Shown here: positions 1 through 7,832 of the stretch, piece after piece | Layout: each line of letters begins with the position of its first letter | Numbering within the stretch: position 1 is the stretch's first letter | Source: a virus | Lineage: Duplodnaviria > Heunggongvirae > Uroviricota > Caudoviricetes | Strand: one strand, 5' to 3' | DNA: 7,832 nucleotides | Virus record (IMG/VR): IMGVR_UViG_2627853765_000005 | Notes under the pieces: model-generated | Seen by the model: only the letters and a program-made list of their open reading frames with translations | What the model was told of the DNA's origin: nothing | Database searches by the model: none | Made by a program: the position numbers and the translations under genes

Positions 1-28
1 ACTAAATCAGTAAGTTGGCAGCATTACC
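1..28 (-). mobile_element. IS1 copy, terminal 28 bp only (IRL end); rest lies left of the window
   Basis: Bases 1-28 match the right end of the complete IS1 (877-904) at 27 of 28 positions. The terminus reads GGTAATGCTGCC on the minus strand, a mix of the IRL and IRR consensus. Confidence 0.8.
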
Positions 29-151
29 AAAAAGGGTGAGCGATTTTTGATAGTTGAACCAGGCACTTTAAGTTTAACTAGGGCGTCATTATTTATTAAA
101 TTTTATAGACGCTATATATGGGTAGTAATATACATGGGTAATGACTCCAAA

Positions 152-849
152 TTATTGATAGTGTTTTATGTTCAGATAATGCCCGATGACCTTGTCATGC
201 AGCTCCACCGATTTTGAGAACGACAGCGACTTCCGTCCCAGCCGTGCCAGGTGCTGCCTCAGATTCAGGTTATGCCGCTCAATTCGCTGCGTATATCGCT
301 TGCTGATTACGTGCAGCTTTCCCTTCAGGCGGGATTCATACAGTGGCCAGCCATCCGTCATCCATATCACCACGTCAAAGGGTGACAGCAAGCTCATAAG
401 ACGCCCCAGCGTCGCCATAGTGCGTTCACCGAATACGTGCGCAACAACCGTCTTCCGGAGCCTGTCATACGCGTAAAACAGCCAGCGCTGGCGCGATTTA
501 GCCCCGACGTATCCCCACTGTTCGTCCATTTCCGCGCAGACGATGACGTCACTGCCCGGCTGTATGCGCGAGGTTACCGACTGCGGCCTGAGTTTTTTAA
601 GTGACGTAAAATCGTGTTGAGGCTAACGCCCATAATGCGTGCAGTTGCCCGGCATCCAACGCCATTCATGGCCATATCAATAATTTTCTGGTGCGTACCG
701 GGTTGAGAAGCGGTGTAAGTGAACTGCAGTTGCCATGTTTTACGGCAGTGAGAGCAGAGATAGCGCTGATGTCCGGCAGTGCTTTTGCCGTTACGCACCA
801 CCCCGTCAGTAGCTGAACAGGAGGGACAGCTGATAGAAACAGAAGCCAC
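152..849 (-). CDS. insB: IS1 InsAB' transposase made by programmed -1 frameshift at the A6C motif (insA frame 849-574, insB' frame continuing to 152)
   Basis: The insB' frame translates to ...[21 protein letters not shown]...[10 protein letters not shown], the InsB sequence. The AAAAAAC slip site sits at 592-598 (minus-strand sense). The insB' frame has an in-frame TAG at 623-625 upstream of the slip site, so an independent long InsB from the ATG at 653-655 is not possible in this copy. Confidence 0.85.
574..849 (-). CDS. insA: IS1 InsA (91 aa), transposition inhibitor and N-terminal part of the InsAB' transposase
   Basis: ORF translation [39 protein letters not shown]... is the InsA protein with its zinc-finger-like CxxC...CxxC and helix-turn-helix. 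This copy has the VSL variant. Confidence 0.95.
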
Positions 850-905
850 TGGAGCACCTCAAAAACACCATCATACACTAAATCAGTAAGTTGGCAGCAT
901 CACCG

Positions 906-962
906 AAGGACGGCAAGGACATTGTGCCCGATCGCATCCGTTCCGCGCTTGGGCTTGGCTGA
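906..962 (+). pseudogene. 3' remnant (18 codons, ...KDGKDIVPDRIRSALGLG*) of the gene upstream of gpE, truncated by IS1; possibly a tail tube (P2 FII-like) gene
   Basis: An open frame runs straight out of the IS1 boundary at 904/905 to a TGA at 960-962, just upstream of the gpE-like gene. In P2 gene order (FI-FII-E-E'-T-U-D) this position is FII. The frame choice and identity are inferred, not recognised. Confidence 0.3.
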
Positions 963-1017
963 TAAGTAATATGCTGGCGGCGCAGTGCGTCGCCTCTGAC
1001 TGAAAAGGAGACAACAG

Positions 1018-1392
1018 ATGAAAGACATCGATACTGAAACCCGGAATAACACCGTGGCGGATAATGTGACGGCAGTTGAGGATATGGCTGTCGAACGTGG
1101 CGTAAAACTGACCCGACCAATTGAGCGTGGTGGCGAAAAAATCACGTATGTGGAGATCACCGGGGCTATTGAGCAGGCTGGATCCCTGCGTGGTCTGTCG
1201 CTGTCTGATGTGCTGAATCTGAAAGCGGATACCATGTTCACGCTGTTGCCTCGCGTGACCTCGCCACGACTGGATGAAGTGATGATTAAAAAAATGTCGT
1301 CACGCGATTTTATTCAGTTGTGCGCTGTGGCTGTAAATTTTATGAGTGAGCCAGACTCTGGCGCGAAGAGCGTGCAGGAGACGGCAGCGTAA
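1018..1392 (+). CDS. Phage tail assembly chaperone, P2 gpE-like (124 aa)
   Basis: ATG at 1018 preceded by AAGGAG (1005-1010). The protein contains ...SLRGLSLSDVLNLKADTMFTLLPRV..., typical of P2 E-family chaperones, and sits immediately upstream of the tape measure gene. Confidence 0.85.
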   Translation: MKDIDTETRNNTVADNVTAVEDMAVERGVKLTRPIERGGEKITYVEITGAIEQAGSLRGLSLSDVLNLKADTMFTLLPRVTSPRLDEVMIKKMSSRDFIQLCAVAVNFMSEPDSGAKSVQETAA

Positions 1393-1556
1393 TCACCCTG
1401 GTGTGCTTTGAGCACATCGAAGATCTGGTGGCGGATATTGCCGCCATTTTTAACTGGTCGCCCGCCGAAATCTTCATGATGACGCCCTGCGAAGTGGTTA
1501 GCTGGCGTGAGCGAGCGGCACTTCGTAGCGGGAATGCAGACAATGAAGACTCTTGA
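1350..1556 (+). CDS. E' extension frame (-1 relative to gpE), expected to be expressed only as an E+E' fusion by programmed frameshift
   Basis: The -1 frame is open for 68 codons from 1350 to a TGA at 1554-1556 and has no start codon of its own. It encodes ...DLVADIAAIFNWSPAEIFMMTPCEVVSWRERAALRSGN..., overlaps the last 13 codons of gpE and the first codons of the tape measure gene, as in P2 E/E'/T. The slip site was not identified. Confidence 0.5.
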   Translation, partial: ARLWREERAGDGSVITLVCFEHIEDLVADIAAIFNWSPAEIFMMTPCEVVSWRERAALRSGNADNEDS

Positions 1557-4350
1557 TATCCGGGTCGCTTTCAGCGCCGTTGACAGGCTGACCCGGCCTG
1601 CCGAAAACGCCCGCCGCCTGATGGGGCAGTTTGGTGACTCCATCCAGCGAACGCAGGGGGCGATCAAAAATCTCGAGCGTCAGGCGCGATCATTTGAGCG
1701 CGCCCGTGACGCTGTCAGTAAAGCGGATGCGGGCATCGTGAAAGCACGACGCCAGCTTAACGCCCTTAATCAGTTACAACGCACGGGTACAGTGCTCAGC
1801 GAAAAACAACAAAAGCTGATGCAGCAGTTAAGCACCCGGCTTGAACGCCTGAATGAATCGCGCACACGGGAAATTCAGAAAATGCGGGAGCTTGGCGGAG
1901 AGCTGAAACGCCACGGCATTTCCCTGACAGGCAGCGATAACACCATCCAGCAGGCCATCAGACGCACCGAACAGTACAATAACCAGCTTGAACGCGAACG
2001 GCAGGCGCTTGCGCGTGTAACACGGGCGCGTGAGCGGTATTCGCGCGCGCAGGAAACAGCGGGAAAACTGAAAACAGGTGGTGCGCTGGCAATTGGTGCG
2101 GCAGCGGCGGGCGGCTATGCTGCCGGGCGTTTTTTGCAGCCTGCGATCGGGTTCGGCAAAGAGATGTTCCGCGTTCAGGCACTGACGCGAATCGACCAGA
2201 ACAGCCCGCAGTTTAAGGCGCTGCGTGAGCAGGCGTTAAAACTTGGCTCTGAAACGCAGTTCACCGCAGGCGATGCCGCCAGTGGACAGGCATTTCTTGC
2301 AATGGCTGGCTTTACACCACAGGCCATTCAGGCTGCGCTCCCTGGCGTACTGAGCATGGCAACGGCTGGCGGTATGGACCTCGGTGAGACGGCGGATATT
2401 GGCTCAAATATTCTGACGCAGTTCGGTCTTTCTGCTGACCAGATGGACCGGGTCGGCGACACACTCACCGCAGCGTTTACCCGTACCAACACTGACCTTC
2501 GCGCACTGGGTGAAACCATGAAATATGCAGGTCCGGTGGCGGGTAAGCTGGGAATATCTCTGGAGCAGGCCGCAGCGATGGCGGGCGTGCTGGCGAATAT
2601 GGGTATCAGGGGGAGTGATGCTGGTACGGCAATGCGTGCCAGCCTGGCTCGTCTGGCATCACCGCCAAAGGCGGCAGCAGAGGCGCTGAAAGAGCTTGGC
2701 GTGTCTGTCTCGGATGCCGGGGGCAAAATGCGCCCGATGGAGGATGTGCTGGCTGACCTTTATAAAGCTACCCGCAAATACGGGGAAGTTGACCGGGTAT
2801 CGTTCTTTAAGGACATTGCCGGAGAAGAGGCTTTCACATCATTTATGGCCCTCGTTGATGCGGCAGGTTACGGCTCCTTACCCAAACTGAGAAAAGAACT
2901 TGAAGGCGCGCGCGGTGAGGCTGAACGCACGGCAAAGGTTATGGCCAACAACCTTGACGGCGATCTGAAATCACTCAGCAGTGCATGGGAAGGGTTGCGC
3001 ATCCGCATTGCAGATCTGATTGACGGTCCGCTGCGTTCTGTCACGCAGTGGCTCACGCGTGTGGTATCAAAGGTGACGGCGCTGGCGCAGGCCCATCCCG
3101 CACTGACGCGCCAGCTACTGATTGCAGGCGGTGCATTGCTGGCAATGACTGCAACGGTTGGCTCGTTGTCGCTGGCTATTGGTGTGCTTGCTGGCCCGCT
3201 GGCAAAACTGCGTCTTGGTTTTTCCCTCCTGACCGGATCAATGAATGCTGTCAGGGTTCTGCCAGCACTATGGGGAATGGTGACGGGTTCCGTTTCTTTA
3301 CTGGGAGGCGCTATCGGGGCGTTGTTCAGTCCGGTTGGTCTTATCGTGGCTGCGCTTGCCGGAGCTGCCGTTCTTATCTGGAAATACTGGGATCCCATCA
3401 GGGCATTTTTTGCCGGGGTGTTCAGCGGGATTATGGAAAGGCTGACCCCGTTGCGCGAAACATTTGAACGGTTTGGTCCTGTTTTTGACGCAATCGGGAG
3501 TGGGATCAGCCAGGTGTTTAACTGGTTTAAATCGCTGCTGTCACCGATGGAGTCCAGCAAGGAAACTCTGGATAAATGTACCAGTGCTGGCGAGATATTC
3601 GGTAACGTTCTTGGCGGTGCGTTACAACTTGTTCTGACACCTGCAAAAATGTTGCTGGATACGCTGGCGTGGATACTTGAAAAGCTTGGTGTGCTTCCGG
3701 ATGAAGCGGAAAGGGCGCGCAAGAAAATCGAAGACGCACAGCGTGCGGCCATTCTTCAGGACAAGGTTGCCTTGCTTCAGGGGGACCTGGCGAAAATCAA
3801 TCCGCCGAAGCCTGTGGAAAATGGCAATGGCACCGGAGGTGATAACCCCAAAGACAATAAACCGCTCACAGACAGCAATACCGGTACGCTGCGCAGACTC
3901 AGCAAAATTGCTGATAACACAGGTAAGCTGGTTGAGGAGACGAAAAAACGCATTGGCCCCGGCGATATTGTCTTTAAAAACCTGCCCCGAGCACTTGCTG
4001 TTCGTGGGGAGTGGCAGGAGCGGAAGATTGCGCAGGTCAGTAAGCCTGCCCCCGCAATTAATATCACACCCGTGGTTCCGGCTCCGCTGCCTCCGGCGCT
4101 GGTCCCTGTTGTTGCGGCCAGCTCCCGCCCGGTGGCGGAGGCTATACGATCTCCAGTGGCATCAGTTCCTGTAACTTCCCGTAACCGGGAGCCTGTTGCC
4201 TCCGGATTTGGTGGTGAAATTCATGTTCATCTGCATAACGTTGTTACGCAGAATCCCCGCGAACTGGCGAAACTGGTCGGTGAAATGGTCAGGGCAGAAA
4301 TGGAACGGCGCGCCCGTGCCGGGCGTGGCTGTTTTTACGATAAAGATTGA
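1543..4350 (+). CDS. Phage tail tape measure protein (P2 gpT-like, about 935 aa)
   Basis: Very long ORF directly after the chaperone pair. It has a coiled-coil-like N-terminal region rich in Q/R/E/L, a long Gly/Ala-rich hydrophobic stretch (about 3091-3390) and a Pro-rich C-terminal stretch. Start is chosen at the ATG at 1543 (GGGA 9 nt upstream); the ATG at 1534 and the GTG at 1507 are alternatives. Confidence 0.9.
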   Translation: MKTLDIRVAFSAVDRLTRPAENARRLMGQFGDSIQRTQGAIKNLERQARSFERARDAVSKADAGIVKARRQLNALNQLQRTGTVLSEKQQKLMQQLSTRLERLNESRTREIQKMRELGGELKRHGISLTGSDNTIQQAIRRTEQYNNQLERERQALARVTRARERYSRAQETAGKLKTGGALAIGAAAAGGYAAGRFLQPAIGFGKEMFRVQALTRIDQNSPQFKALREQALKLGSETQFTAGDAASGQAFLAMAGFTPQAIQAALPGVLSMATAGGMDLGETADIGSNILTQFGLSADQMDRVGDTLTAAFTRTNTDLRALGETMKYAGPVAGKLGISLEQAAAMAGVLANMGIRGSDAGTAMRASLARLASPPKAAAEALKELGVSVSDAGGKMRPMEDVLADLYKATRKYGEVDRVSFFKDIAGEEAFTSFMALVDAAGYGSLPKLRKELEGARGEAERTAKVMANNLDGDLKSLSSAWEGLRIRIADLIDGPLRSVTQWLTRVVSKVTALAQAHPALTRQLLIAGGALLAMTATVGSLSLAIGVLAGPLAKLRLGFSLLTGSMNAVRVLPALWGMVTGSVSLLGGAIGALFSPVGLIVAALAGAAVLIWKYWDPIRAFFAGVFSGIMERLTPLRETFERFGPVFDAIGSGISQVFNWFKSLLSPMESSKETLDKCTSAGEIFGNVLGGALQLVLTPAKMLLDTLAWILEKLGVLPDEAERARKKIEDAQRAAILQDKVALLQGDLAKINPPKPVENGNGTGGDNPKDNKPLTDSNTGTLRRLSKIADNTGKLVEETKKRIGPGDIVFKNLPRALAVRGEWQERKIAQVSKPAPAINITPVVPAPLPPALVPVVAASSRPVAEAIRSPVASVPVTSRNREPVASGFGGEIHVHLHNVVTQNPRELAKLVGEMVRAEMERRARAGRGCFYDKD

Positions 4351-4356
4351 GGAGTC

Positions 4357-4851
4357 ATGGCCATGATGATGATCTACGGCATGTTTGTTTTTGAGCTGCG
4401 CACGCTGCCGCATCAGCAGTTACAGCAAAACAAAAGCTGGCGGCATGTGAAAAATGAACGCGTTAACCGTTCAGCAAGCTGGCAGTATATCGGTGCAGGT
4501 GATGATCGCATCGTTCTTTCTGGTGTGCTTTATCCTGAAATTACAGGTGGCGAAGTGTCGCTGTCGCTGCTGACCACGCAGGCGTATACAGGACTACCCT
4601 GGCCTTTGATTGATGGCGTCGGGCAGATTTACGGCATGTATGTCCTGACTGAAACGAATACGACCCGCTCCGAGTTTGATCGCTACGGTAAGGCGAAAAA
4701 GATAGAATTTTCACTGACTCTTGAACGCTGTGATGAGGATTTGCGGGAGCGCCTGCAATCCTCATCGTTCAGTGATATGCTGTCCGGCTTCAAAGATAAG
4801 GTGACATCATCTCTTAACAGCGCGGCCAGTTCAGTTAAAGGGCTGTTCTGA
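4357..4851 (+). CDS. Phage tail protein, P2 gpU-like (164 aa)
   Basis: Translation ...GMFVFELRTLPHQQLQQ...LSGVLYPEITGG...WPLIDGVGQIYGMYVL...KKIEFSLTLER... matches the P2 gpU family pattern and follows the tape measure gene as in P2. GAGGAG at 4349-4354; the ATG at 4363 is an alternative start with better spacing. Confidence 0.85.
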   Translation: MAMMMIYGMFVFELRTLPHQQLQQNKSWRHVKNERVNRSASWQYIGAGDDRIVLSGVLYPEITGGEVSLSLLTTQAYTGLPWPLIDGVGQIYGMYVLTETNTTRSEFDRYGKAKKIEFSLTLERCDEDLRERLQSSSFSDMLSGFKDKVTSSLNSAASSVKGLF

Positions 4852-4860
4852 TTTAACACA

Positions 4861-4890
4861 AAAACCGCTAATGGTCAGATTAGCGGTTTT
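4861..4890. terminator. Bidirectional rho-independent terminator hairpin between convergent gpU and the invertase gene
   Basis: Perfect inverted repeat AAAACCGCTAAT (4861-4872) / ATTAGCGGTTTT (4879-4890) with a 6-nt loop GGTCAG, followed by TTTTCATTTT on the plus strand and a U-rich run on the minus strand. The right arm overlaps the last codons of the invertase. Confidence 0.65.
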
Positions 4891-5479
4891 CATTTTCCTG
4901 AGTCTGCCCGGTTGTTTCTTCAGTCTGTATATCGCCTACAGGGTGATAACGATAAATCGTCGATGTGCCAATGCCGTAAATTATTGCCAGTTGTTTTCTG
5001 TCGTGCCCGTTTTTGATTAGCCTTGCTATTTGCTCATGCTGTTCTTTTGTCAGCTTCGGTCGACGTCCGCCTGTGCGCCCCCTTGCGCGCGCTGCCGCCA
5101 GCCCGGCCAGTGTACGTTCAACAATTAATTCACGTTCCATTTCAGCCAGGGCACCCATCACGTGGAAGAAAAAACGCCCCATTGGAGAAGATGTGTCTAT
5201 GCTGTCGGTCAGACTGCGAAAATTAATCCCTCGCTCCCGTAGTTCCCCGACGAGAGAAATCAGATGTTTCATGCTTCGCCCGAGGCGATCCAGTTTCCAG
5301 ACAACCAGCGTGTCACCTTTTTGAAGGCGCTTTAAAGCGCGTTTTAATCCCGGTCGGTCTGTCTTTGTCCCGCTTAATTTATCTTCAAATATTTGTTCAC
5401 ATCCTGCACAAACAAGAGCGTTTCGTTGCAGGTCTGTATTCTGGTCATTTGTTGATACCCTTACATAGCCAATCAGCAC
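4880..5479 (-). CDS. Serine DNA invertase of the Gin/Pin/Cin/Hin family (about 199 aa)
   Basis: From the GTG at 5479 (GGGAG 7 nt upstream) the protein begins (M)LIGYVRVSTNDQNTDLQRNAL..., the canonical invertase N-terminus with the catalytic serine. It continues ...GDTLVVWKLDRLGRSMKHL...MGRFFFHVMGALAEMERELI... and ends with a helix-turn-helix (...QLAIIYGIGTSTIYRY...). Confidence 0.93.
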   Translation of the reverse strand: MLIGYVRVSTNDQNTDLQRNALVCAGCEQIFEDKLSGTKTDRPGLKRALKRLQKGDTLVVWKLDRLGRSMKHLISLVGELRERGINFRSLTDSIDTSSPMGRFFFHVMGALAEMERELIVERTLAGLAAARARGRTGGRRPKLTKEQHEQIARLIKNGHDRKQLAIIYGIGTSTIYRYHPVGDIQTEETTGQTQENENR

Positions 5480-5533
5480 ACTGAATCTCCCGTCCAAAAG
5501 CGCAAATCATGCCATGCAGGCCAGAAACGGCCA

Positions 5534-5559
5534 TTATTTAAAACCTCGGTTTACAGGAA
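5534..5559. promoter_or_regulatory. gix/pix/cix-type 26-bp recombination (crossover) site for the invertase
   Basis: The minus-strand reading TTCCTGTAAACC-GA-GGTTTTAAATAA matches the Mu gixL sequence as I recall it at 24 of 26 positions, with the central GA dinucleotide at 5546-5547. It lies between the invertase start and the fibre cassette, and the fibre reading frame opens inside it. Confidence 0.8.
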
Positions 5560-5583
5560 ACGGTAAACAGGGCTGGTAACGCC

Positions 5584-6420
5584 GTGCAAAAAAATGGCGA
5601 TACCTTGTCCGGTGGGCTTACTTTTGAAAATGACTCAATCCTTGCCTGGATTCGAAATACTGACTGGGCGAAGATTGGATTTAAAAATGATGCCGATGGT
5701 GACACTGATTCATACATGTGGTTTGAAACAGGCGACAACGGCAATGAATATTTCAAATGGAGAAGCCGCCAGAGCACCACAACAAAAGACCTGATGACGC
5801 TGAAATGGGATGCACTAAATATTCTTGTTAATGCTGTCATTAATGGCAGTCTTGGAGTTGGTTCGACGAATGCGTTAGGTGGTAGCTCTATTGTTCTTGG
5901 TGATAATGACACCGGATTTAAACAGAATGGAGACGGTATTCTGGATGTTTATGCTAATAGTCAGCGTGTATTCCGCTTTCAGAATGGAGTGGCTATTGCT
6001 TTTAAAAATATTCAGGCCGGGGATGGTAAAAAATTCACGCTATCCAGCTCCAACAACTTCACAAAGAATGCAACGTTTAATTTATGGGGTGCTTCAACCC
6101 GTCCAGTAGTTGCAGAGTTAGGCGATGAGGCAGGATGGCATTTCTATAGCCAGCGAAATACAGATAACTCGGTAATATTTTCTGTTAACGGTCAGATACA
6201 GCCCAGCAACTGGGGGAATTTTGATTCACGCTATGTAAAAGATGTTCGCCTGGGTACGCGTGTTGTTCAATTGATGGCGCGTGGTGGTCGTTATGAAAAA
6301 GCCGGACACGCAATTACCGGATTAAGAATCATTGGTGAAGTAGATGGCGATGATGAAGCCATCTTCAGACCAATACAAAAATACATCAATGGCACATGGT
6401 ATAACGTCGCACAGGTGTAA
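5584..6420 (+). CDS. Tail fibre C-terminal variable-domain cassette (Mu S / P1 S family); likely the silent copy in the present orientation
   Basis: The frame is open from 5542, immediately after a TAA inside the gix site; the first in-frame start is the GTG at 5584, with no convincing ribosome-binding site. The C-terminus ...RPIQKYINGTWYNVAQV resembles the second cassette on the opposite strand. It is followed directly by a tail fibre assembly gene. Confidence 0.8.
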   Translation: MQKNGDTLSGGLTFENDSILAWIRNTDWAKIGFKNDADGDTDSYMWFETGDNGNEYFKWRSRQSTTTKDLMTLKWDALNILVNAVINGSLGVGSTNALGGSSIVLGDNDTGFKQNGDGILDVYANSQRVFRFQNGVAIAFKNIQAGDGKKFTLSSSNNFTKNATFNLWGASTRPVVAELGDEAGWHFYSQRNTDNSVIFSVNGQIQPSNWGNFDSRYVKDVRLGTRVVQLMARGGRYEKAGHAITGLRIIGEVDGDDEAIFRPIQKYINGTWYNVAQV

Positions 6421-6423
6421 ATT

Positions 6424-6951
6424 ATGCAGCATTTAAAAAATATTAAGTCCGGAAATCCAAAAACAAAAGAACAATATCAGCTAACAAAGAATTTTGATGT
6501 TATCTGGTTATGGTCCGAAGACGGTAAAAACTGGTATGAGGAAGTAAATAACTTTCAGGACGACACCATAAAGATTGTATACGACGAAAATAATATTATT
6601 GTTGCCATAACCAAAGATGCCTCAACGCTTAATCCCGAAGGCTTTAGTGTCGTTGAGATTCCAGATATAACAGCCAATCGTCGCGCCGATGATTCAGGGA
6701 AGTGGATGTTTAAGGACGGAACTGTGGTTAAGCGGATTTATACAGCAGACGAACAGCAACAACAGGCCGAATCACAAAAGGTCGCGTTGCTTTCTGAAGC
6801 TGAAAGCGTTATTCAGCCACTGGAACGCGCTGTCAGGCTGAATATGGCGATGGATGAGGAACGCACACGACTGGAGTCATGGGAACGCTACAGCGTTCTG
6901 GTCAGCCGTGTGGATACAGCAAATCCCGAATGGCCACAAAAGCCTGAGTAA
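6424..6951 (+). CDS. Tail fibre assembly protein (Tfa / Mu U family, 175 aa)
   Basis: Protein [24 protein letters not shown]...[30 protein letters not shown]... is Tfa-like. It starts 4 nt after the fibre cassette stop and is paralogous to the minus-strand ORF at 6980-7513. Confidence 0.85.
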
Positions 6952-6956
6952 AAATT

Positions 6957-6976
6957 AAGGCCCAATATCGGGCCTT
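6957..6976. terminator. Hairpin between the convergent tail fibre assembly genes, a possible bidirectional terminator
   Basis: AAGGCCC (6957-6963) / GGGCCTT (6970-6976) with a 6-nt loop. It is flanked by an A/T-rich run on the minus-strand downstream side; the plus-strand U tract is weak. Confidence 0.4.
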
Positions 6977-6979
6977 CTC

Positions 6980-7513
6980 TCATTCTGGTTGTTCGGGAAA
7001 CGTTACTGGCAGGCTGGAGGTGTCTGTAGATTCGACTTTCTGCGCATAGAGCATCCACTCGGTTAATTTTTGTTTATTCTCGTCGGAAATGATGCCCAGC
7101 CGTAGCTGTGAGTCCCATAGCTGGGTTTTATCCCTGACAAGTTGCAACAGGCTTTGCTTTTCATTTTCCGCTTGTTGCCTCTGCTCTTCCTCGGTATAAG
7201 TTCGCTTTATCACTACGCCATCTTTGAACAACCATTTCCCCGAAATATCAGCCCGGCGATTTGCTGTAATATCAGGTAATTCAACGACGCTTGCGCCTTC
7301 CGGATTAATTGCTGAAACATCCTTTTCAATACAAATAATAACGCCGTTATGGTCATAGACCATTTTCAAAGTGTCTGGCTGGAAATTCTTTTGCTCCTCA
7401 TACCAGTTTTTTCCATCATCTGAATAAAGCCATTTGATGTTAAATTGCTTTGTTAGCTGGTATTGCTCTTTTGTTTTAGGGTTGCCAGCAGTAATGTTTT
7501 TTAAGTGCATCAT
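6980..7513 (-). CDS. Tail fibre assembly protein, second copy (Tfa / Mu U' equivalent, 177 aa)
   Basis: Protein [24 protein letters not shown]...[30 protein letters not shown]... is a paralogue of the 6424-6951 product. GGGGAG lies 9 nt upstream of the ATGATG start at 7513. Confidence 0.85.
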   Translation of the reverse strand: MMHLKNITAGNPKTKEQYQLTKQFNIKWLYSDDGKNWYEEQKNFQPDTLKMVYDHNGVIICIEKDVSAINPEGASVVELPDITANRRADISGKWLFKDGVVIKRTYTEEEQRQQAENEKQSLLQLVRDKTQLWDSQLRLGIISDENKQKLTEWMLYAQKVESTDTSSLPVTFPEQPE

Positions 7514-7515
7514 CG

Positions 7516-7802
7516 TTAAATACTCCCCGCGTTATACCACGTCCCATTAATGCAATACTGAATTGGCCTTGCCTGTGTTGTATCAATTAATTCATCACGG
7601 TTTCCGTTAACTGAACCCGTAACGACATAACCTGACCTGTCAGACCAGCCGGGACCATTCCATGTCTGAACAGATGACAGACCGCCAAGGCGAATACCTG
7701 TAATAAACCTTGAGTTACATTCTGCCCGCGTATATGCACCAACATCTCCCGCTGAAGGTTTTCGTGTCGTGGTATAGAAATCTGACCAACCTAATTCAAC
7801 CC
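7516..7802 (-). pseudogene. Second tail fibre C-terminal cassette (Sv' equivalent), 3' part only; its 5' part is interrupted by IS1
   Basis: My manual minus-strand translation is open for 96 codons from the IS1 junction to a TAA at 7516-7518: ...GAYTRAECNSRFITGIRLGGLSSVQTWNGPGW...QARPIQYCINGTWYNAGSI*. The C-terminus parallels ...RPIQKYINGTWYNVAQV of the plus-strand cassette. There is no start codon before IS1 begins at 7803. Confidence 0.75.
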
Positions 7803-7832
7803 GGTAATGACTCCAACTTATTGATAGTGTTT
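7803..7832 (-). mobile_element. IS1 copy, first 30 bp only (IRR end); rest lies right of the window
   Basis: GGTAATGACTCCAACTTATTGATAGTGTTT matches the IS1 IRR terminus and 137-166 at 29 of 30 positions. It is in the same orientation as the complete copy. Confidence 0.85.

What the first reader, a model, noticed from the sequence alone, without database searches (positions are those of the whole stretch)
7516..7832. IS1 insertion interrupts the second tail-fibre cassette
The minus-strand fibre frame runs without a stop from the IS1 boundary (7802/7803) to its TAA at 7516. Only 96 codons remain, against at least 292 codons in the paralogous plus-strand cassette (5542-6420). IS1 has therefore split or replaced the 5' two thirds of the cassette that, in this orientation, would be joined to the fibre constant region. 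The fibre switch is probably non-functional.
Basis: partly seen in the sequence, partly recalled or inferred. Interest (0 to 1): 0.6.

Follow-up and report, generated by a model that had tools for sequence, protein, structure and literature searches.

The report
IS1 splits one prophage tail-fibre cassette
An IS1 element has inserted into one of the two alternative tail-fibre ends of a decaying P2-like prophage in Shigella boydii; this is ordinary genome decay, except that the invertible DNA switch still flips with the IS1 inside it and its other fibre ending is intact.

Summary
The window is a whole draft contig of Shigella boydii (AMKD01000124.1). It carries the tail and fibre-switch part of a P2-like (Xuanwuvirus-type) prophage. 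At 7802/7803 the minus-strand fibre gene runs into the last 30 bp of IS1. Only 94 native codons plus the stop remain (7516-7802).

IS1-free E. coli and S. boydii relatives have an unbroken 661-codon fibre gene at this position. Their empty site holds one copy of ATTCAACCC. A complete S. boydii genome (CP026762.1), 99.9% identical to the window, has a 768-bp IS1 flanked by that 9-bp duplication. The rest of the gene follows as a 570-aa truncated product. The cassette is therefore split, not replaced.

The claim that the switch is non-functional is not supported for the DNA inversion itself. The Gin-like invertase is intact. Another complete genome (CP026866.1) and several draft assemblies carry the same IS1-bearing segment flipped, with exchange exactly at the core of the 26-bp sites. 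In that state an intact 716-aa fibre is encoded.

The prophage as a whole is defective, because a second IS1 splits the tail-tube gene. What lies beyond the IS1 in the window's own genome could not be shown. The finding is ordinary and of low interest.

The parts
7803..7832 (-). Terminal 30 bp of IS1 (the GGTAATGACTCC... end). The contig stops here because IS1 is a collapsed repeat in the draft assembly. In sister genomes insA/insB read in the same direction as the fibre gene.
   Evidence: 29/30 match to the end of the complete IS1 at 137-166. A full 768-bp IS1 sits at the same place in CP026762.1.
7794..7802 (.). ATTCAACCC, one copy of the 9-bp target-site duplication made by the IS1 insertion.
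   Evidence: A second copy lies on the far side of the IS1 in L005, L019 and L020. IS1-free S. boydii contigs L027-L029 have a single copy.
7516..7802 (-). 3' remnant of the variable cassette Sv2 of the P2 gpH-type tail-fibre gene: 94 native codons (V568-I661) plus TAA.
   Evidence: Translation. Identical to the C-terminus of the 661-aa fibre of IS1-free relatives except F568V.
6980..7513 (-). Tail-fibre assembly gene tfa2, cognate to Sv2. It lies downstream of the IS1 in this orientation.
   Evidence: Pfam Caudo_TAP, E 1e-36.
6424..6951 (+). Tail-fibre assembly gene tfa1, cognate to Sv1.
   Evidence: Pfam Caudo_TAP, E 4e-35; 56% identical to tfa2.
5560..6420 (+). Silent alternative fibre C-terminal cassette Sv1 (frame open from 5542). 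After inversion it is fused to the constant region to give an intact 716-aa fibre.
   Evidence: Pfam Gp34_trimer. In-silico flip. The exact 716-aa product is present in S. boydii assemblies and in CP026866.1.
5534..5559 (-). Left 26-bp gix-type crossover site, TTCCTGTAAACC-GA-GGTTTTAAATAA. The right partner lies beyond the IS1, outside the window.
   Evidence: Single match in the window, none in 200 shuffles. The partner site is in the fibre gene of relatives. Recombinant half-sites are seen in L020.
4880..5479 (-). Serine DNA invertase of the Gin/Hin (Din) family, intact at 199 aa.
   Evidence: Pfam Resolvase + HTH_7. Matches the PDB chains 3UJ3 and 4M6F ('DNA-invertase'), E 1e-99 to 3e-100. 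198/199 identical to the IS1-free relative.
137..904 (-). Second, complete IS1 (768 bp), in direct orientation to the one at 7803. It cuts the tail-tube gene FII, whose 3' end is at 905-962.
   Evidence: Sequence. InsA call. The same insertion with TSD CCGTCCTTC occurs in CP026762.1.

Best explanation
The window is the IS1-bounded middle part of a defective P2-like (Peduoviridae, Xuanwuvirus-type) prophage of Shigella boydii. The prophage carries a Mu G-segment-type host-range switch. A Gin-like serine invertase flips a 2.7-kb segment between two 26-bp sites. This joins the constant 428 codons of the fibre gene either to cassette Sv2 (with tfa2) or to cassette Sv1 (with tfa1).

An IS1 transposed into Sv2, 94 codons before its stop, and duplicated ATTCAACCC. 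In the orientation seen in the window the fibre gene is therefore cut. One part is a 570-aa truncated product (ending ...GYGVEW*, the stop lying in the IS1 end). The other is the promoterless 94-codon remnant at 7516-7802.

The insertion lies inside the invertible segment and leaves the invertase and both crossover sites untouched. The segment, now about 3.45 kb, still inverts and carries the IS1 as a passenger. In the flipped state the fibre gene (constant part + Sv1, 716 aa) and tfa1 are intact.

Shown: the insertion, the duplication, the empty site, both orientations, and the exact crossover. Inferred: that this prophage's own invertase did the flipping, and that the far side of the IS1 in the window's own genome is still the rest of the fibre gene.
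For: - IS1-free relatives continue as a 661-codon fibre gene exactly from window 7802.
- Empty site with one GGGTTGAAT in S. boydii contigs L027-L029.
- Filled site in the complete genome CP026762.1, which is 99.91% identical and colinear with window 136-7832. It has a 768-bp IS1 flanked by GGGTTGAAT on both sides, then Sv2 5' part, right site, constant region and gpI.
- 570-aa products ending GYGVEW in S. boydii and S. dysenteriae.
- Flipped state with the same IS1 in the complete genome CP026866.1 and in drafts L005, L009 and L021-L023. L005 and L009 are 100% identical to the window over about 4.7 kb.
- Reciprocal half-site exchange at the central dinucleotide.
- Intact invertase.
- In-silico flip gives a 716-aa ORF, and that exact sequence is on record in S. 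boydii.
Against: The window itself ends 30 bp into IS1, and the contig carrying the other half in its own assembly (GCA_000815765.1) was not found. The other IS1 in this window (137-904) has lost its duplication partner and abuts a scrap of yccE. IS1-mediated rearrangement has therefore occurred in this very genome and could also have affected the right-hand IS1. Flipping could have been catalysed in trans by another Din-family invertase in the genome. Whether flipping still occurs within cultures was not measured.
Confidence: 0.88

Rival explanations
1. In the window's own genome the IS1 at 7803 marks an IS1-mediated deletion or rearrangement. The 5' part of the cassette, the right crossover site and the constant region would no longer be adjacent, so the cassette is 'replaced' and the switch is physically dismantled.
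For: The left IS1 of the same contig has no target duplication and is joined to a 108-bp scrap of the chromosomal gene yccE. Two related complete genomes have lost the whole interval by IS1 x IS1 recombination. The partner contig of this assembly was not recovered.
Against: The left flank at 7794-7802 is the exact target duplication of the simple insertion. Every sister genome examined that retains this block has the partner half next to the IS1.
Confidence: 0.1
2. The 96-codon frame is a naturally short, intact gene that merely abuts an IS1.
For: None beyond the open frame itself.
Against: There is no start codon at the boundary. The frame is the exact 3' end of a 661-codon gene in more than 100 IS1-free genomes, and an empty site exists in S. 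boydii.
Confidence: 0.01
3. The switch is dead. On this view the two orientations seen in the lineage are frozen relics of one old inversion, and no inversion happens now.
For: Only fixed assemblies were compared; within-culture heterogeneity was not measured. The prophage is defective, so no selection maintains the switch.
Against: The invertase is intact and both sites are intact. Both orientations occur among drafts that are 100% identical over about 4.7 kb of flanking DNA. One contig breaks exactly at the crossover site (L010), as expected for a mixed population. Defective prophages such as e14, and P2-like prophages of E. coli, are known to keep flipping in culture (PMC4272514).
Confidence: 0.15

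Closest known systems
Invertible G segment of phage Mu with Gin (also the P1 C segment with Cin, and e14 with Pin)
   Same: A serine invertase whose first 138 residues are almost identical to the PDB 'DNA-invertase' chains 3UJ3/4M6F, which I take from memory to be Mu Gin. Two 26-bp inverted crossover sites close to my recalled gix sequence, with a central GA. A constant fibre 5' part outside the segment. Two alternative 3' cassettes, each with its own tail-fibre assembly gene, arranged tail to tail. DNA of the module is about 90% identical to Shigella phage SfMu over 72% of its length.
   Different: It is carried by a P2-like (Xuanwuvirus) prophage rather than Mu or P1. One cassette is split by IS1, so the segment is 3.45 kb and one state gives a truncated fibre.
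Invertible tail-fibre loci of P2-like prophages of E. coli (Goldberg et al. 2014, PMC4272514; Escherichia phages 503458, 520873 and P88, genus Xuanwuvirus)
   Same: Same gene order and 94-99% DNA identity over the module. Such loci are known to phase-vary in culture.
   Different: The E. coli copies examined lack the IS1. None of the best-ranked hits among 5,426 complete E. coli genomes spans the junction.
IS1 insertions and IS1 x IS1 deletions in Shigella genome decay
   Same: A 768-bp IS1 with a 9-bp target duplication and insA/insB. Two direct copies bracket a 6.9-kb interval that is deleted in S. boydii CDC 3083-94 (CP001063) and CP026872, leaving one IS1 with one flank from each insertion.
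   Different: Nothing unusual, except that site-specific inversion of the segment reverses the relative orientation of the two IS1 copies.

Membership tests
IS1 insertion sequence | About 768 bp with imperfect terminal inverted repeats GGTGATGCTGCC... / GGTAATGACTCC... | tested here: met
   Only 30 bp lie in the window (7803-7832), and they match the complete copy at 137-904 at 29/30. A full 768-bp element sits at the identical site in CP026762.1, CP026866.1 and others.
IS1 insertion sequence | insA (Zn-ribbon/HTH) and insB (DDE_Tnp_IS1) reading frames | tested here: met
   Precomputed Pfam hits on the element in L018, L019 and L020, and on the window's copy at 574-849.
IS1 insertion sequence | 9-bp target-site duplication with a matching empty site | tested here: met
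   ATTCAACCC/GGGTTGAAT lies on both sides of the IS1 in L005, L019 and L020. L027-L029 have a single copy. Only one copy is visible in the window itself.
Din-family (Gin/Cin/Pin/Hin) invertible tail-fibre switch | Small serine recombinase with an N-terminal catalytic domain (Ser9) and a C-terminal HTH | tested here: met
   Resolvase + HTH_7. E 1e-99 to 3e-100 to the DNA-invertase structures 3UJ3 and 4M6F. The MLIGYVRVST motif is present.
Din-family (Gin/Cin/Pin/Hin) invertible tail-fibre switch | Two 26-bp crossover sites in inverted orientation with an identical central dinucleotide | tested here: met
   The left site is at 5534-5559 in the window. The right site is present only in relatives and sister genomes: L001 9413-9438, and core matches at 11274 and 14725 in L019. 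It is not in the window because the contig ends first.
Din-family (Gin/Cin/Pin/Hin) invertible tail-fibre switch | Both orientations occur, with exchange at the site core | tested here: met
   L019 and L020 are colinear except for 11261-14749, which is inverted, and hybrid half-sites are present. Drafts L005 and L009 are flipped relative to the window.
Din-family (Gin/Cin/Pin/Hin) invertible tail-fibre switch | Fis-dependent recombinational enhancer within the 5' part of the invertase gene | not tested
   Only indirect evidence: the SfMu match at 90% overall identity spans window 5124-7791 in two joined pieces, a range that includes the 5' half of the invertase gene. No Fis-site analysis or assay was done.
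Din-family (Gin/Cin/Pin/Hin) invertible tail-fibre switch | Alternative fibre C-termini, each with its own assembly gene, fused in frame to one constant region | tested here: met
   State A without the IS1 gives 661 aa followed by tfa2. State B gives 716 aa followed by tfa1.

The most novel reading that the evidence does not exclude
The switch may be more than a relic that happens to keep flipping. Because the IS1 rides inside the invertible segment, each inversion reverses its orientation relative to the second IS1 in the tail-tube gene. This toggles the outcome of IS1 x IS1 homologous recombination between deletion of the 6.9-kb tail module (direct copies, as seen in CDC 3083-94) and its inversion. 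A site-specific phase switch would then gate a larger genome rearrangement. Alternatively, the retained intact invertase and the 716-aa fibre state could be kept by selection for a host function.
Probability: 0.04. Interest if true: 0.4.

Novelty: already known. Interest (0 to 1): 0.15.

Why it matters
It matters little. The locus is a clean, fully documented example of Shigella genome decay, with an empty site, a filled site, a flipped state and an IS1 x IS1 deletion derivative all on record. It also shows that a Gin-type switch tolerates a 0.78-kb passenger. It is a useful caution for annotation: a contig that ends in an IS does not show that the gene's other half is lost, and a broken cassette does not mean that the DNA switch is dead.

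Tried and rejected
- I searched the junction (7633-7832) in 5,426 complete E. coli genomes. None of the best-ranked records spans it; all listed matches stop at 7802.
- Megablast showed an apparent 1-bp gap next to the junction, which I first read as a possible frameshift. Sister and empty-site sequences show it is an A-to-C substitution (Phe568Val) beside the IS1 end.
- Exact look-up of the window's tape-measure protein and of its 104-aa partial fibre product returned only short contigs that break at IS1 or inside Sv1. None crosses the IS1.
- Look-ups of two truncated-fibre variants (P0113, P0114) did not hit the window's own assembly.
- Paper searches for the accession AMKD00000000 and for S. 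boydii + P2-like + prophage + IS1 found nothing.
- I looked for extra gix-like sites that would indicate a multi-inversion system or explain the divergent FI-U block. None was found with up to 3 mismatches in the 15-kb L001 locus. The gene order is simply that of genus Xuanwuvirus.

Full report
**What the window is.** Exact look-up of the tape-measure protein shows that the 7,832-base window is the whole draft contig AMKD01000124.1 of assembly GCA_000815765.1. NCBI names that protein as Shigella boydii. Pfam assigns these genes:
- 1543-4350, P2-type tape measure.
- 4363-4851, gpU.
- 4880-5479 (-), a resolvase/invertase.
- 5542-6420 (+), a fibre C-terminal fragment.
- 6424-6951 (+) and 6980-7513 (-), two tail-fibre assembly genes.

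The gene order and 94-99% DNA identity match P2-like prophages of E. coli and catalogued phages of the genus Xuanwuvirus, family Peduoviridae.

**Check of the observation.** The minus-strand frame from 7803 to the TAA at 7516-7518 is open and reads RVELGW...NGTWYNAGSI*. Bases 7803-7832 match the end of the complete 768-bp IS1 at 137-904 of the same contig at 29 of 30 positions. More than 100 complete E. coli genomes match the region up to window 7802 and then continue with a fibre gene of 661 codons. The window therefore keeps only the last 94 native codons. No listed hit among the complete E. coli genomes spans the junction.

**Anatomy of the switch.** The IS1-free relative has two 26-bp sites in inverted orientation. 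TTCCTGTAAACC-GA-GGTTTTAAATAA lies beside the invertase, at 5534-5559 in the window. TTCTCGTAAACC-GA-GGTATTCGATAA lies inside the fibre gene, 428 codons from its start. From memory, they closely resemble the Mu gix site. The invertase matches the PDB 'DNA-invertase' structures 3UJ3 and 4M6F, which I take to be Mu Gin, at E 1e-99 to 3e-100. It is 198/199 identical to the copy in the IS1-free relative.

The module is thus a G-segment-type host-range switch: constant region + Sv2 + tfa2 in the orientation seen here, and constant region + Sv1 + tfa1 after inversion. Sv2 is 233 codons long, so about 60% of it lies beyond the IS1. Sv1 and Sv2 share only 32% identity over about 110 C-terminal residues.

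**What lies across the IS1.** The window cannot show this, because the contig ends in the repeat. Sister genomes can.
- Searching with the N-terminal 567 residues of the intact fibre found 568-570-aa proteins from S. boydii and S. dysenteriae. The 570-aa forms end ...RDGYGVEW, which is the product expected if the frame runs into the other IS1 end and stops.
- One of these proteins lies in the complete genome CP026762.1. Its DNA is colinear with window 136-7832 at 99.91% and continues as follows: Sv2 3' part, GGGTTGAAT, 768-bp IS1, GGGTTGAAT, Sv2 5' part, right site, constant region, gpI, gpJ.
- IS1-free S. boydii contigs carrying the same Val568 allele have one copy of GGGTTGAAT.

This gives the classical set of empty site, filled site and 9-bp duplication. 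The cassette is split, not replaced.

**The switch still flips.** Draft contigs L005 and L009 are 100% identical to the window up to the left site. They then continue into the Sv2 5' part, the duplication and the other IS1 end, which is the segment in the opposite orientation.

Inverting the DNA of CP026762.1 in silico between the two site cores gives an intact 716-aa fibre (constant part + Sv1) followed by tfa1. That exact protein is on record from S. boydii in nine contigs. One of these is the complete genome CP026866.1, where the whole 3.45-kb IS1-bearing segment is inverted and the half-sites are exchanged reciprocally at the central dinucleotide.

The same insertion occurs in both states, so inversion happened after the IS1 arrived. 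One draft contig ends exactly at the crossover site (L010), as expected for a mixed population. Continued flipping in defective prophages (e14) and in P2-like prophages is documented (PMC4272514). That this prophage's own invertase is responsible is an inference, because Din invertases are known to act in trans.

**State of the prophage.** A second IS1 (137-904) splits the tail-tube gene. In CP026762.1 this copy has its own duplication, CCGTCCTTC. The two IS1 copies are direct repeats in the window's orientation. In S. boydii CDC 3083-94 (CP001063) and in CP026872 the whole interval corresponding to window 905-7802 is gone. One IS1 remains, with one flank from each insertion, which is the signature of IS1 x IS1 recombination.

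In the window's own genome the far side of the left IS1 is a 108-bp scrap of yccE followed by another IS1 end. This genome has therefore been rearranged further, which is the main reason for not putting the simple-insertion reading at certainty for this particular strain.

**Verdict.** The insertion is real and simple and inactivates one fibre ending. The DNA switch itself is not dead, and its other state is intact. All of this sits in a prophage that can no longer make tails. Every component is textbook (IS1, Gin-type inversion, a P2-like fibre module, Shigella IS-driven decay), and the locus is present in annotated public genomes. No paper describing this particular locus was found. Interest is low.

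Noticed in passing
window 1-136: The contig starts with the last 28 bp of another IS1 (1-28), followed by a 108-bp scrap of the chromosomal gene yccE (29-136, 100% identical to E. coli yccE). The complete IS1 at 137-904 follows directly. That IS1 has no matching 9-bp flanks here (ATATACATG vs GAAGGACGG), although the same insertion in CP026762.1 has the duplication CCGTCCTTC. An additional IS1-mediated rearrangement has happened in this genome.
   Followed up: partly
window 905-7802; L016 and L018 11709-12476: The interval between the two IS1 copies is exactly what is missing in S. boydii CDC 3083-94 (CP001063) and CP026872. A single IS1 is left, with the fibre-side flank on one side and the tube-side flank on the other. 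Inversion of the fibre segment reverses the relative orientation of the two IS1 copies, so the deletion must have started from the orientation seen in the window.
   Followed up: yes
window about 5954-6267 (inside Sv1): Several short-read contigs from other isolates break inside Sv1: L004 at 6267, L006 and L007 at 6005, L008 at 5954, and L013 from the other side at about 5977. This suggests that part of the cassette is repeated elsewhere in these genomes, probably in another prophage fibre gene.
   Followed up: no
window 7799/7800: Megablast reported a 1-bp gap against all E. coli relatives next to the junction. It is really an A-to-C substitution (Phe568Val) that is also present in the IS1-free S. 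boydii allele. There is no frameshift.
   Followed up: yes
L018, L019, L020 (sister genomes): The prophage carries different further lesions in different strains. gpV is split into 91 + 98 aa in CP026872 and CP026866. CP026762 and CP001063 have a 294-aa ORF with gpO-N and M15-peptidase Pfam domains where the capsid genes would lie, which implies that those genes are deleted. Decay is therefore independent and ongoing.
   Followed up: no
L026 (NC_049341.1, Escherichia phage 503458) 2085-3843: The RefSeq 'phage' closest to this module itself has an IS100 (IS21 family) inserted in its tail-sheath gene. The reference record appears to be a defective prophage.
   Followed up: no
L019 10525-10869: The constant part of the fibre gene contains an internal tandem duplication of about 130 bp, 86% identical between copies. 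It encodes the repeated KG.VQLSSATNS.SET.AATPKAVKAAYDLA motif (Pfam Phage_fiber_2).
   Followed up: no
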